A stretch of 64,000 bases of DNA, taken from positions 8,908-72,907 of the forward strand of contig JAUYEI010000014.1 in NCBI GenBank assembly GCA_030691385.1, read 5' to 3'. Below the pieces are notes generated by a model. It was not told the origin of the DNA, ran no database searches, and saw only the letters and a list, made by a program, of their open reading frames with translations. Below are positions 42,980-50,864 of the stretch, one piece after another. Origin of the DNA: Azonexus sp. (GTDB lineage: Bacteria; Pseudomonadota; Gammaproteobacteria; Burkholderiales; Rhodocyclaceae). Numbering within the stretch: the stretch's first letter is position 1; the number at the start of each line of letters is the position of its first letter. A program made the translations under genes and the position numbers.

Positions 42980-44644
42980 TTAGCGCGTAATCGGCTTGTA
43001 GCGAATCCGCTTGGGCTTGGCACCTTCTTCGCCCAGACGCTTGCGCTTGTCTTCCTCGTATTCCTGGAAATTGCCTTCGAAGAAATTCCACTGCGAATCG
43101 CCTTCGGCCGCGAGGATGTGCGTACAAATGCGGTCGAGGAACCAGCGATCATGCGAGATGACCATCGCGCAGCCGGGGAATTCGAGCAGGGCGTCTTCCA
43201 GCGCGCGCAGCGTTTCGACGTCGAGGTCGTTCGACGGTTCGTCGAGCAGCAGCACGTTGCCGCCCGTCATCAGCGTCTTGGCCAGGTGCAGGCGACCGCG
43301 TTCGCCGCCGGACAGATTGCCGACCTGCTTGCCCTGGTCGGCGCCCTTGAAGTTGAAGCGGCCGATGTAGGCGCGTGACGGCATTTCAAACTTGCCGATC
43401 TGCAGGATGTCGCTGCCTTGGGCGAGTTCCTCGAATACTGTCTTCGAGCCATCCAGGCAGTCACGCGATTGGTCCACATAGGCCATCTTGACCGTCGGGC
43501 CGATGTCGACCGTGCCGGAGTCGGGCTGTTGCTGGCCGGTGATCATCTTGAACAGGGTCGATTTACCGGCACCGTTCGGGCCGATGATGCCGACGATGGC
43601 GCCGGCCGGGATGGTGAAGCTGACGTTGTCCATGAGCAGCTTGTCGCCGAAGGACTTGGTGACGCCGTTGAATTCGATGACCTTGCCGCCCAGACGGTCG
43701 CCGACCGGGATGAAGATTTCCTGGGTCTCGTTGCGTTTCTGGTATTCCTGGCTCGACAACTCTTCAAAACGGGCGATGCGGGACTTCGATTTGGCCTGGC
43801 GCGCCTTGGGGTTTGAACGCACCCATTCCAGTTCCTGCTTCATCGCCTTCATGTGGGCGTCGATCTGCTTGTTTTCCGTTTCCAGGCGGGCTTCCTTCTG
43901 CTCCAGCCAGCTAGAGTAGTTGCCCTTGTACGGAATGCCGTGGCCGCGGTCGAGTTCGAGAATCCATTCGGCAGCGTTGTCGAGGAAATAGCGGTCGTGG
44001 GTGACGGCGACGACGGTGCCGGGGAAGCGGACGAGGAATTGTTCGAGCCATTCGACCGATTCGGCGTCGAGGTGATTGGTCGGTTCGTCGAGCAAAAGCA
44101 TGTCCGGCTTGGCGAGCAGCAGCTTGCACAGCGCGACGCGACGCTTCTCGCCGCCGGACAGGTTGCCGATCACGGCCTCCCAGGGCGGCAGGCGCAGGGC
44201 GTCAGCGGCCAGTTCCATCTGTGCTTCGGTGTCGGAGCCGGCGGTGGAAATGATCGCTTCGAGGCGGGCCTGTTCTTCGGCCAGCTTGTCGAAATCAGCT
44301 TCCGGGTCGGCGTAGGCGGCATAGACCTCATCGAGCTTGGCCTGGGCCTGCATCACTTCGCCGAGCGCCGATTCGACTTCCTCGCGCACCGTCTTGGCGG
44401 CATCGAGCTGCGGCTCCTGCGGCAGGTAGCCGATGGAAACGCCGGCCAGGTGTTGCACTTCGCCGTCGTATTCCTTGTCCACGCCGGCCATGATCTTGAG
44501 CACGGTCGATTTGCCCGAGCCGTTCAGGCCGAGCAGGCCGATCTTGGCGCCGGGGAAGAAAGAGAGGGAAATATCCTTGATGATCTGCCGCTTGGGCGGA
44601 ACGATCTTGCTCACGCGGAGCATGGACATGACGTATTGAGCCAT
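42980..44644 (-). CDS. ettA: Energy-dependent translational throttle protein EttA (ABC-F)
   Basis: MAQYVMSM, ISLSFFPGAKIG.LGLNGSGKST, two ABC domains, WVRSNPKARQAKSK linker. Confidence 0.95.
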   Translation of the reverse strand: MAQYVMSMLRVSKIVPPKRQIIKDISLSFFPGAKIGLLGLNGSGKSTVLKIMAGVDKEYDGEVQHLAGVSIGYLPQEPQLDAAKTVREEVESALGEVMQAQAKLDEVYAAYADPEADFDKLAEEQARLEAIISTAGSDTEAQMELAADALRLPPWEAVIGNLSGGEKRRVALCKLLLAKPDMLLLDEPTNHLDAESVEWLEQFLVRFPGTVVAVTHDRYFLDNAAEWILELDRGHGIPYKGNYSSWLEQKEARLETENKQIDAHMKAMKQELEWVRSNPKARQAKSKSRIARFEELSSQEYQKRNETQEIFIPVGDRLGGKVIEFNGVTKSFGDKLLMDNVSFTIPAGAIVGIIGPNGAGKSTLFKMITGQQQPDSGTVDIGPTVKMAYVDQSRDCLDGSKTVFEELAQGSDILQIGKFEMPSRAYIGRFNFKGADQGKQVGNLSGGERGRLHLAKTLMTGGNVLLLDEPSNDLDVETLRALEDALLEFPGCAMVISHDRWFLDRICTHILAAEGDSQWNFFEGNFQEYEEDKRKRLGEEGAKPKRIRYKPITR

Positions 44645-49901: not shown

Positions 49902-50243
49902 ATGTTCAAACGTCACCTCATGGTCGCCAGCATCACCGCTGCAGCCACCTTTGCCGGCCTCGGCCTTGCCGCCTTCGCCACCGACGATCCGCAACTGCTC
50001 GCCGCGATGGTGGCCAACAACGAAGCTCAGGACGCGGCCCTCATCGACAAGGTCGAAACCCTGCTGCGCACCGACATCGGTCTGGCCGGTTCGCAGTTCC
50101 GTGTCCTTGCCAAATCAGCCGTCGTTACCGTTGGCGGCTCGGTGCCCGACGAACATGCGCTGCGCCGGGCGATCGACCTCGCCAGTGGTGTTCGCGGCGT
50201 GCGTGAAGTGCGCAACGCCATGGAGGTCGATGTCCCAAAGTAA
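49902..50243 (+). CDS. Secreted single BON-domain protein
   Basis: Signal peptide, DAALIDKVETLL..., VVTVGGSVP, ASGVRGVREVRNAM. AGGG RBS. Confidence 0.85.
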   Translation: MFKRHLMVASITAAATFAGLGLAAFATDDPQLLAAMVANNEAQDAALIDKVETLLRTDIGLAGSQFRVLAKSAVVTVGGSVPDEHALRRAIDLASGVRGVREVRNAMEVDVPK

Positions 50244-50279: not shown

Positions 50280-50546
50280 TCAGTCTGATTCCAGAGTCAC
50301 CAGTAGCGCGCCTTCGGCGACTGTATCGCCCTCTGTAACGTGGATTTGAACCACCCGGCCCGCGTGCGGGCTGGGAATATCCAGCGCCACCTTGCCGGTT
50401 TCCAGCGTCAGAATGTTGTCGTCGCGCTCCACCCTGTCGCCAACCGCCACCAGCAATTCGAGAATGAATACATCGCCGCTCGCGCACGAACCGCAACTCG
50501 ACCAGCACTCGGGGTACATCGGCATGCGAACGAAGGAGAAAGACAT
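50280..50546 (-). CDS. Stand-alone lipoyl/biotinyl carrier domain with Cys-rich insert
   Basis: VAVGDRV...LTLETGKVALDIPSPHAGRV..IHV.EGDTV.EG aligns to E2 lipoyl domains. N-terminal ECWSSCGSC. Confidence 0.75.
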   Translation of the reverse strand: MSFSFVRMPMYPECWSSCGSCASGDVFILELLVAVGDRVERDDNILTLETGKVALDIPSPHAGRVVQIHVTEGDTVAEGALLVTLESD

Positions 50547-50567: not shown

Positions 50568-50602
50568 TTGCATTCTACGCCAGCGCCCGTATAATGCGCC
50601 GC
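50568..50602 (+). promoter_or_regulatory. sigma70 stable-RNA promoter for the tRNA pair
   Basis: TTGCAT-16 nt-TATAAT followed by GC-rich discriminator GCGCCGC. Confidence 0.75.
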
Positions 50603-50611
50603 TCTGACAGT

Positions 50612-50688
50612 GCGCCCGTAGCTCAGCTGGATAGAGTACTTGGCTACGAACCAAGGGGTCGGGCGTTCGAATCGCTCCGGGCGCACCA
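50612..50688 (+). tRNA. tRNA-Arg(ACG)
   Basis: 77 nt, acceptor GCGCCCG/CGGGCGC, anticodon loop CT-ACG-AA, T-loop TTCGAAT, encoded CCA. Confidence 0.97.
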
Positions 50689-50750: not shown

Positions 50751-50827
50751 GCGCCCGTAGCTCAGCTGGATAGAGTACTTGGCTACGAACCAAGGGGTCG
50801 GGCGTTCGAATCGCTCCGGGCGCACCA
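50751..50827 (+). tRNA. tRNA-Arg(ACG), identical second copy
   Basis: Identical 77-nt sequence. Confidence 0.97.
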
Positions 50828-50837
50828 AAAATTCATG

Positions 50838-50864
50838 AAAAAGCCACCTTCGGGTGGCTTTTTT
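50838..50864 (+). terminator. Intrinsic terminator of the tRNA operon
   Basis: AAAAAGCCACC-ttcg-GGTGGCTTTTTT. Confidence 0.88.

What the first reader, a model, noticed from the sequence alone, without database searches (positions are those of the whole stretch)
50280..50546. Free-standing lipoyl domain carrying a CX3CX2C insert
Seen: 88 aa. The loop that is PDIG-like in E2 lipoyl domains reads YPECWSSCGSCASG, i.e. C-x3-C-x2-C, and the modification-site hairpin is ETGKV (neither DKA nor MKM). No dehydrogenase, carboxylase or glycine-cleavage genes are adjacent. Established: CX3CX2C is the [4Fe-4S]-binding spacing of radical-SAM enzymes, and lipoylation depends on Fe-S sulfur insertion. Inference: a metal/Fe-S-binding carrier or redox-sensing lipoyl relay. 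The spacing may be coincidental.
Basis: partly seen in the sequence, partly recalled or inferred. Interest (0 to 1): 0.55.

Follow-up and report, generated by a model that had tools for sequence, protein, structure and literature searches.

The report
Lipoyl carrier with three-cysteine loop
A small free-standing protein built like the lipoic-acid-carrying arm of pyruvate dehydrogenase carries an unchanging three-cysteine loop right beside the lipoic-acid attachment lysine. It defines an undescribed protein family in Dechloromonas-type bacteria and some relatives, and it probably gives lipoic acid a new redox or metal-linked job.

Summary
An 88-aa gene on the minus strand (50546..50283, stop 50282..50280) encodes a Biotin_lipoyl domain with an 8-9-residue insert in the beta1-beta2 loop.

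- **Conservation:** the insert reads CWxxCGxC (C14, C18, C21). All three Cys, W15, G19 and K52 are kept in all 53 Rhodocyclaceae genomes that carry the gene. They are also kept in 7 genomes from four other families of the class and in 119 of 120 close database homologues. dN/dS is 0.09-0.22.
- **Origin:** none of about 139 E2-type relatives has the motif, and no solved structure covers it. The family is one clade nested among AceF/Lpd-type lipoyl domains, and I found no real fused forms.
- **Hairpin:** ETGK is only a Rhodocyclaceae D-to-G variant. Distant members read ETDKT, so the domain looks lipoylatable.
- **Context:** no partner gene is adjacent in this window. In 13 of 53 relatives the gene follows gcvTHP (often with an ACT gene between), and in 21 of 53 ettA lies within 5 kb, usually downstream. 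This looks ancestral, but gcvP is not required.

Best reading: a lipoylated stand-alone carrier whose rebuilt recognition loop forms a Cys3 metal/Fe-S centre, or alternatively a disulfide centre, next to the lipoyl arm. The chemistry is inferred, not shown. It is not a radical-SAM protein. I rate it a new variant of a known kind, of moderate to high interest.

The parts
50280..50546 (-). Gene for the 88-aa stand-alone lipoyl-type domain protein (P0001). Coding sequence 50546..50283, stop 50282..50280.
   Evidence: Translation. Pfam PF00364 at 5.2e-16. More than 1100 near-length homologues. dN/dS 0.09-0.22.
50475..50522 (-). Enlarged beta1-beta2 loop, residues P9-G24. Invariant residues are P9, P12, C14 (50507..50505), W15, C18 (50495..50493), G19 and C21 (50486..50484).
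   Evidence: Alignments A1 and A2. All 53 family genomes and 7 out-of-family genomes keep the motif. The insert shows against own AceF/Lpd/SucB. AF2 gives a one-turn helix at 14-17 with loop pLDDT about 65.
50373..50405 (-). Lipoyl-lysine hairpin L48-P58 (LETGKVALDIP), with invariant K52 at 50393..50391.
   Evidence: T50, K52, D56, I57 and P58 are invariant. The hairpin aligns to the DKA/DKV turn of AceF, Lpd and SucB.
50572..50577 (-). TAGAAT, a likely -10 box of the gene's own promoter, 26-31 nt upstream of the ATG.
   Evidence: My own reading of the sequence. Similar TAGAAT/TACAAT/TATAAT-like hexamers lie 25-45 nt upstream in many relatives, including loci without the tRNA. The consensus scan did not call a promoter here.

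Best explanation
This is a cytoplasmic, stand-alone swinging-arm carrier that descends from an AceF/Lpd-type lipoyl domain.

K52 at the tip of the hairpin is lipoylated by the housekeeping LipB/LipA pair. The beta1-beta2 surface loop normally lies against the lipoyl-lysine turn and tells E1 enzymes which domain to use. Here it has been replaced by an invariant P-x2-P-x-C-W-x2-C-G-x-C loop.

I think the three thiolates most likely hold a metal centre. That could be an Fe-S cluster with one open site, or Zn/Fe, placed within reach of the dithiolane. The protein would then pair lipoate with a second sulfur-ligated redox centre. Housekeeping dihydrolipoyl dehydrogenase would charge or discharge it, and the new loop would steer it to a partner other than the E1 enzymes.

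Shown: the fold, the insert position, invariance of Cys3/W/G/K, a single origin, purifying selection, and presence of LipA/LipB and Lpd.

Inferred: lipoylation, metal binding, coupling of the two centres, and the partner.
For: - **Fold and ancestry:** PF00364 at 5e-16. The best profile matches are PDH E2 and long-form E2. Identity to the genome's own Lpd N-terminal lipoyl domain is 49%. AF2 gives pLDDT 88, and Foldseek's top hits are lipoyl/biotinyl domains including 1gjx and 1qjo.
- **Invariance:** P9, P12, C14, W15, C18, G19, C21, T50, K52, D56, I57, P58 and G63 are invariant in 54 sequences. The motif is kept in 7 genomes from 4 other families and in 119 of 120 close homologues.
- **Three Cys rather than two:** a Gly directly follows the middle Cys, as in metal-thiolate knuckles and ferredoxin CxxCGxC. 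The only peptide-level look-alike in the PDB is the FwdG polyferredoxin motif, at a non-significant E of 2.
- **Lipoylation competence:** distant members have a canonical E-T/S/A-D-K-T hairpin. lipB-lipA are present on C38.
- **Single origin:** the family forms one clade even without the loop columns, SH-aLRT 91.
- **No private partner:** there is no fixed operon partner and the gene has its own promoter. This fits use of housekeeping partners.
- **Precedent:** LbpA is a lipoate-binding protein that gained conserved Cys for a non-canonical role (PMC6067878).
Against: - No experiment and no model coordinates were available. Cys-Cys and Cys-Lys distances were therefore not measured.
- Only three invariant ligands exist. 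Residue 13 is mostly E or D but is P, V, G or F in some members. A classical four-protein-ligand structural site is thus not present.
- An exposed 12-residue loop is an unusual home for an Fe-S cluster.
- The CGxC element equally fits a thioredoxin/PDI/DsbC-like dithiol.
- The Rhodocyclaceae D-to-G change removes the Asp that NMR work links to E3 contact.
- No Fe-S assembly, metal-handling or dedicated ligase genes are consistently nearby.
Confidence: 0.38

Rival explanations
1. Dithiol/disulfide relay. K52 is lipoylated. C18-G-x-C21 forms a redox-active disulfide, with C14 as a resolving or third thiol, and exchanges with the neighbouring dihydrolipoyl arm. NADH to Lpd to lipoyl-K52 to the CGxC pair would then reduce client proteins. 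This would be a one-domain version of the mycobacterial Lpd-DlaT-AhpD-AhpC chain. No metal is involved.
For: - CGxC with an invariant Gly resembles the WCGPC, CGHC and CGYC active sites (my own knowledge).
- The loop lies beside the lipoyl turn.
- In one out-of-family genome the gene sits directly upstream of cysH, a thiol-dependent PAPS/APS reductase, inside a sulfate-assimilation cluster.
- The absence of any metal-handling neighbours fits this reading.
Against: - Three Cys are strictly invariant, not two.
- There is no thioredoxin fold, and no helix is predicted after C18.
- The cysH adjacency is seen in one of two genomes of a single genus.
Confidence: 0.25
2. Retargeted recognition loop or regulatory adaptor. 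The Cys3 loop, possibly stapled by Zn, is a rigid docking surface. It redirects the domain from E1p/E1o to another partner. That partner could belong to the glycine cleavage system or its ACT-domain regulator, next to which the gene ancestrally lay. The Cys have no redox chemistry of their own.
For: - The loop is the known E1 specificity determinant.
- The order gcvT-gcvH-gcvP-(ACT)-X is found in 13 of 53 genomes. It is scattered over the X tree, needing at least 7 changes, so it is probably ancestral.
- The start overlaps or nearly abuts the stop of the ACT gene in several loci, with gaps of -1, -1, 17 and 23 nt.
Against: - GcvP is in 132 of 151 family genomes, so co-occurrence does not discriminate. 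X occurs without a detectable gcvP in a 98%-complete genome.
- In this window's genome gcvP is on another contig, and no ACT-gene homologue was found.
- Out-of-family members have no gcv neighbours.
- The other recurrent neighbours, ettA, trhP and tRNA-Arg, are housekeeping genes. Plain ancestral synteny therefore suffices.
Confidence: 0.17
3. Sulfur (persulfide/polysulfide) carrier in the manner of LbpA. The Cys and the lipoyl arm together bind and present sulfane sulfur to an oxidoreductase.
For: - LbpA proteins differ from GcvH by two strictly conserved Cys and act in sulfur oxidation (PMC6067878).
- One named out-of-family member is from Sedimenticola. I recall this genus as a sulfur oxidiser, which is my own knowledge and was not checked.
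- A GcvH-like gene and a neighbouring 132-aa gene lie near X in a same-genus genome. I read the latter as DsrE-like from its N-terminus only. The pair is separated from X by the tRNA genes.
Against: - No hdr-like, sox or dsr genes, and no dedicated LplA or radical-SAM maturation genes, are next to X in any of 60 loci.
- X is an E2-type domain, not a GcvH-type domain.
Confidence: 0.08
4. The protein is biotinylated rather than lipoylated, or is a decaying duplicate whose Cys spacing is coincidental.
For: Weaker profile hits to BCCP families exist, for example NF006079 at 9e-12. Foldseek ranks BCCP structures alongside lipoyl domains.
Against: - No MKM-type motif occurs in any member. The hairpins are TGK, TDK, SDK, ADK, TNK, TSK or AEK.
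- The closest relatives are AceF/Lpd lipoyl domains.
- dN/dS of 0.09-0.22 and invariance over five families exclude decay or coincidence.
Confidence: 0.04

Closest known systems
Lipoyl domains of PDH E2 (AceF) and the N-terminal lipoyl domain of betaproteobacterial Lpd (Neisseria P64K type, PDB 1gjx; E. coli E2p 1qjo)
   Same: Same flattened beta-barrel fold. Identity over residues 25-88 is 40-50%. The Lys sits at the hairpin tip, and the (L/M)(D/E)(I/V)P and AG-x-V motifs follow it.
   Different: X stands alone at 88 aa, with no PSBD, catalytic or E3 domain. The PDIG-type loop is replaced by an 8-9-residue-longer loop with invariant CWxxCGxC. In Rhodocyclaceae the residue before the Lys is Gly, not Asp.
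LbpA lipoate-binding proteins of the sHdr sulfur-oxidation system (PMC6067878)
   Same: Both are single-domain lipoate carriers outside the classical complexes, marked by extra strictly conserved Cys.
   Different: LbpA is GcvH-type and about 150 aa, with its Cys at the N- and C-termini. It is always encoded with hdr-like genes and its own ligase and radical-SAM maturases. X is E2-type, has its Cys in one loop, and has no fixed neighbours.
[quoted passage not shown] 2006, cited in PMC4016012)
   Same: Both are free-standing proteins of about 8-9 kDa with the biotinyl/lipoyl fold and no known function.
   Different: I know of no Cys-rich loop in BLAP. It is biotinylated and lipoylated in E. coli but is not lipoylated by its own host's enzymes. 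The two were not compared by sequence here.
Mycobacterium tuberculosis Lpd-DlaT(SucB)-AhpD-AhpC peroxidase relay (my own knowledge; papers located but not read)
   Same: A lipoyl domain passes reducing power from E3 to a CxxC protein. X would unite the lipoyl arm and a CxxC in one domain.
   Different: AhpD is a separate all-helical protein. No peroxiredoxin is linked to X. This is a functional analogy only.
Radical-SAM CX3CX2C and ferredoxin CX2CX2CX3CP [4Fe-4S] motifs
   Same: X has the same Cys spacing as radical SAM. The C-G-x-C part matches ferredoxin motifs (non-significant).
   Different: X has no TIM-barrel or Radical_SAM domain, no aromatic residue before the third Cys, and no fourth Cys-Pro. 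It is not a member of either family.

Membership tests
Biotinyl/lipoyl single hybrid-motif domain (Pfam PF00364) | Profile match above the curated cut-off, and the flattened 8-strand barrel fold | tested here: met
   58.7 bits against a 22.1 cut-off. AF2 pLDDT 88 with strands as expected. Foldseek probability 1.00 to lipoyl and BCCP domains.
Lipoyl (as opposed to biotinyl) domains | Acceptor Lys at the tip of the beta4-beta5 hairpin in a D/x-K-A/V/T context, not M-K-M | tested here: met
   K52 is invariant. The context is TGKV in Rhodocyclaceae and T/S/A-D/N/E-K-T in other families, and no member has MKM. The nearest relatives are AceF/Lpd lipoyl domains.
Lipoyl (as opposed to biotinyl) domains | Lys actually carries lipoate | not testable with these tools
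   lipB-lipA are present in the genome. The modification itself needs mass spectrometry or an anti-lipoate blot.
2-oxoacid dehydrogenase E2 acyltransferase | Peripheral-subunit-binding domain and catalytic 2-oxoacid_dh domain (PF02817, PF00198) | tested here: not met
   The protein is 88 aa and holds a single domain. NCBIfam E2 models match only 62-64 of their 400-640 positions, far below cut-off. The 'longer' search found only over-called ORFs and ordinary E2s without the motif.
Glycine cleavage H protein (PF01597) / LbpA | Full-length GCV_H profile match (about 120 positions) | tested here: not met
   Only profile positions 29-74 of 122 match, at 22.9 bits against a 22.2 cut-off. This is hairpin-region similarity.
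Radical SAM superfamily | CX3CX2C within a Radical_SAM (PF04055) partial TIM-barrel domain that binds SAM | tested here: not met
   The spacing is present. No Radical_SAM hit appears in Pfam or NCBIfam. The motif lies in a loop of a beta-barrel of 88 aa.
4Fe-4S ferredoxin (Fer4) | CX2CX2CX3CP motif, usually paired | tested here: not met
   The first spacing is 3 and there is no fourth Cys-Pro. The only similarity is a peptide-level match to FwdG at a non-significant E of 2.
Thioredoxin-fold CxxC oxidoreductases | CxxC at the N-terminus of a helix in a thioredoxin fold | tested here: not met
   CGxC is present, but the fold is a lipoyl barrel. The predicted helix spans 14-17, before C18.

The most novel reading that the evidence does not exclude
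The three-Cys loop holds an Fe-S cluster whose open iron site is completed by a sulfur of the protein's own dihydrolipoyl arm. This would be a self-contained lipoate/Fe-S redox module, a 'lipoyl-ferredoxin' able to bridge two-electron dithiol chemistry (Lpd/NADH) and one-electron Fe-S chemistry. No such cofactor pairing on a single 9-kDa domain has been described.
Probability: 0.15. Interest if true: 0.85.

Novelty: new variant of a known kind. Interest (0 to 1): 0.56.

Why it matters
Lipoate has very few known protein carriers: the E2 enzymes, GcvH and LbpA. Each new carrier has so far revealed new biochemistry.

This family has hundreds of members. About 315 species genomes matched, and it is present in 53 of 151 sampled Rhodocyclaceae genomes. 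These hosts include Dechloromonas and Azonexus, which I know as wastewater phosphate-removing and (per)chlorate-reducing genera. The family places three invariant thiols exactly where the lipoyl arm rests.

It is small, soluble and directly testable by mass spectrometry, metal analysis and spectroscopy. A metal or disulfide centre coupled to lipoate would be a new way of wiring NADH/Lpd to thiol or Fe-S chemistry. A negative result would still define a new specificity loop for lipoyl-domain recognition.

Databases currently label these proteins 'biotin/lipoyl-binding protein' or, wrongly, 'dihydrolipoamide acyltransferase'.

Tried and rejected
The contexts of the most divergent metagenome members (P0177, P0202, P0239, P0244) could not be fetched. 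Only one got a name, Sedimenticola sp..
- **Co-occurrence with the glycine cleavage system:** GcvP is nearly universal in the family (132 of 151), so this is uninformative.
- **Fused forms:** the 'longer' search gave only ORFs over-called through the antisense tRNA, one chimeric contig product without the loop, and ordinary E2/E3 proteins.
- **Loop peptide against the PDB:** nothing significant. The family profile against the PDB showed that no chain covers profile positions 1-22.
- **Other occurrences of the motif:** CWxxCGxC appears nowhere else in the genome apart from one spurious 38-codon frame.
- **Shared regulator site upstream of the gene in 49 loci (window plus 48 relatives):** by eye, only -10-like hexamers and no common operator. 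The consensus promoter scan called nothing.
- **Literature:** six searches found no paper on a lipoyl domain with a Cys-rich loop or on this protein in Dechloromonas.
- **Earlier scan notes:** no look-alike by sequence.
- **AF2 coordinates** are not exposed, so Cys-Cys and Cys-Lys distances could not be measured.
- **Rejected readings:** the 182-aa extended ORF (it overlaps the tRNAs), radical-SAM membership, E2 or GcvH membership, and a biotin carrier.

Full report
**1. What is there**

The finding's coordinates hold a minus-strand ORF. The ATG is at 50546 and the TGA stop at 50282..50280, giving 88 aa (P0001). Residues 11-24 read YPECWSSCGSCASG, and residues 48-58 read LETGKVALDIP.

Pfam places residues 28-85 in Biotin_lipoyl at 5.2e-16 (58.7 bits, cut-off 22.1). 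NCBIfam gives only partial matches. The best are to PDH E2 models (3.7e-17 and 2e-15), with weaker ones to BCCP models. None reaches a cut-off, so no curated family covers this protein.

The mechanical ORF list offers a 182-aa version starting at 50828. That stretch is the antisense of two tRNA-Arg(ACG) genes at 50612-50688 and 50751-50827. Homologues all start M-x(2-5)-[VI]-R-M-P, so 50546 is the start.

**2. Is the gene real and the motif conserved?**

- A near-length search found 1148 proteins. The best 120 are almost all 88 aa and at least 80% identical. The names that appear are Dechloromonas, Azonexus and Rhodocyclaceae.
- A pattern scan of one genome per species found 315 genomes that encode a relative.
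- In a sample of the window's own family, 53 of 151 genomes (36 of 89 genera) carry one copy each.
- In an order-wide sample of 401 genomes, full-length matches occur only in that family. Every other hit covers residues 25-88 inside long E2/E3 ORFs.
- A class-wide sample added 7 genomes from 4 other families with full-length matches. One metagenomic relative is labelled Sedimenticola.
- In a 54-sequence alignment reaching down to 43% identity, the invariant residues are P9, P12, C14, W15, C18, G19, C21, T50, K52, D56, I57, P58 and G63.
- Every one of the 53 family genomes and the 7 outsiders keeps CWxxCGxC. So do 119 of the 120 close homologues.
- E13 is not invariant. It is mostly E or D, and P, V, G or F in some members.
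- None of the roughly 139 long E2-type representatives among the best 150 library hits contains any C-x3-C-x2-C.
- Pairwise dN/dS against relatives is 0.09-0.22.

The Cys triad is therefore a selected feature and not a coincidence.

**3. Ancestry and architecture**

The body of the protein (residues 25-88) is 49% identical to the N-terminal lipoyl domain of a 594-codon ORF on contig C47. I read that ORF as a P64K-type Lpd from its length and position, without running a domain check. Identity is 43% to the neighbouring ORF I read as AceF and 40% to SucB.

The best solved relatives by profile are E. coli AceF, the Neisseria P64K lipoyl domain (1gjx) and 1qjo. No PDB chain aligns to profile positions 1-22.

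Aligned with the genome's own domains, whose loop reads PDIGDFAEVP, the loop of this protein is 8-9 residues longer.

A tree of 65 family members, 70 E2-type domains and the three own domains puts the family on one side of a branch. Support is SH-aLRT 99 with all columns. It is 91 when all columns up to and including the loop are removed. This is consistent with a single origin of the insert.

AF2 with the 54-row alignment gives a confident lipoyl barrel (pLDDT 88). The loop is less certain (about 65) and contains a one-turn helix over residues 14-17. Foldseek returns lipoyl and biotinyl domains only.

A search among longer proteins found no genuine fusion.

**4. The hairpin**

Within Rhodocyclaceae, T-G-K is indeed almost fixed. 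The out-of-family members, however, read ETDKT, ESDKT, EADKT, ETNKT or EAEKT, and the Sedimenticola-type sequence reads ETDKT.

The family as a whole therefore has a normal lipoyl hairpin, and the Gly is a lineage-specific change. No member has a biotin-type MKM. The genome has lipB-lipA. Lipoylation is therefore likely but unproven.

**5. Why the loop position matters**

NMR work reviewed in PMC6270654 states two things about the prominent surface loop between strands 1 and 2. [quoted passage not shown]

Replacing exactly this loop with a Cys3 element does two things at once. It should abolish normal E1 targeting. It also places three thiols next to the dithiolane.

**6. Genomic context**

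In the window, the gene is convergent with a BON-domain gene (49902-50243). It is divergent from the two tRNA-Arg genes. Beyond these lie a hipA-like gene, an HTH gene and prfC on one side, and a sensor kinase with a sigma-54 regulator on the other.

I read a TAGAAT -10-like box for the gene at 50577..50572. It overlaps the TTGCAT -35 of the tRNA promoter, whose TATAAT is at 50590-50595. The consensus scan called neither.

Across 53 family loci with 5-kb flanks, the counts are as follows:

| Neighbour | Loci out of 53 |
|---|---|
| gcvP upstream on the same strand, usually as gcvT-gcvH-gcvP | 13 |
| two-ACT-domain gene within 5 kb (between gcvP and X in most of these; in some its stop overlaps or nearly abuts the X start) | 10 |
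| ettA within 5 kb, usually downstream | 21 |
| Fer2-FAD-NAD reductase (a divergent LysR gene in 5 of these) | 9 |
| trhP | 8 |
| divergent tRNA-Arg (the window's own clade; only 14 of the 52 fetched loci were scanned for tRNAs, so this is a floor) | 7 |

On the protein tree, gcvP linkage needs at least 7 changes and ettA linkage at least 16. The order gcvTHP-(ACT)-X-ettA therefore looks ancestral and has been repeatedly broken.

In this genome gcvP is on another contig. ettA lies 5.6 kb downstream (42980-44644, minus strand), and no ACT homologue was found.

GcvP is present in 132 of 151 family genomes. It is absent from one 98%-complete genome that has X.

Outside the family the neighbours differ entirely. 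They include UPF0014 with a stop/start overlap, cysH, a TPP-enzyme gene that I read as korAB plus a methyltransferase, VWA-CoxE, and transporters.

Overall this is a solo gene in core-genome neighbourhoods. The glycine-cleavage link is a lead, not a requirement.

**7. Mechanism**

I commit to a lipoylated stand-alone carrier whose Cys3 loop forms a second sulfur-based centre beside the lipoyl arm. Within that picture I rank the options as follows.

- **Metal or Fe-S site (0.38).** There are three invariant ligands rather than two. A Gly follows the middle Cys. The i, i+4, i+7 spacing is shared with radical-SAM sites and, from my own knowledge, with ZAS-type (H/C)x3Cx2C metal sites. There is also a weak ferredoxin-like resemblance.
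- **CGxC dithiol/disulfide relay (0.25).**
- **Metal-stapled recognition or regulatory loop tied to the glycine cleavage system (0.17).**
- **LbpA-like sulfur carrier (0.08).**
- **Biotin carrier or relic (0.04).**

None of these is shown. The radical-SAM comparison is spacing only.

**8. Novelty**

No paper, curated family, solved structure or earlier scan note covers this protein. It is a new variant of a known kind, a lipoyl domain. The family is sizeable and cleanly defined, and its feature points to unexplored lipoate chemistry.

Noticed in passing
window 50568-50611: Back-to-back overlapping promoters. The -10-like TAGAAT of the lipoyl gene (minus strand, 50577..50572) overlaps the TTGCAT -35 (plus strand, 50568-50573) of the tRNA-Arg promoter. 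That promoter has a perfect TATAAT at 50590-50595 followed by a GC-rich discriminator. The same layout occurs in same-clade loci L051-L056.
   Followed up: partly
window 50838-50863: Palindromic hairpin (AAAAAGCCACC-CGAA-GGTGGCTTTTT) immediately after the second tRNA-Arg. It is a likely bidirectional terminator closing the tRNA unit before the hipA-like islet.
   Followed up: no
L051:945-4484 (same genus); own genome contig C99:6708-9640: The block selB, tRNA-Sec, a 159-aa GcvH-like gene and a 132-aa gene lies just upstream of tRNA-Arg x2 and X in a same-genus genome. I read the 132-aa gene as DsrE-like from its N-terminus only. In the window's genome the block is on another contig. It is reminiscent of LbpA/DsrE pairs and was not analysed further.
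   Followed up: partly
own genome contig C47:12616-14223: Two adjacent ORFs each open with a lipoyl domain whose loop reads PDIGDFAEVP. From their length and position I read them as AceF and a P64K-type Lpd. The domain on the 594-codon ORF is the closest paralogue of the finding (49% identity).
   Followed up: partly
L194:5731-7342 and L192:7001-10974 (other families of the class): Outside Rhodocyclaceae the homologue sits directly upstream of cysH within a sulfate-assimilation cluster in L194. In L192 it sits downstream of a methyltransferase gene and a TPP-enzyme gene that I read as 2-oxoacid:ferredoxin oxidoreductase (korAB). In L190 its stop overlaps the start of a UPF0014 (FetB-like) permease gene.
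   Followed up: partly
P0190 (metagenome protein): A degenerate family member with W15 changed to G, the acceptor Lys changed to Arg, and about 12 extra residues after the Cys loop. It is either a decaying copy or a sequencing artefact.
   Followed up: no
window 42980-44644 (minus strand): ettA, the energy-dependent translational throttle (NCBIfam 979 bits). It is the ancestral downstream neighbour of the lipoyl gene. Here it is separated from the gene by an N-acyl amino acid synthase gene (so called in an earlier scan note, not checked here), a bactofilin gene, the sensor kinase/sigma-54 regulator pair and the BON gene.
   Followed up: partly
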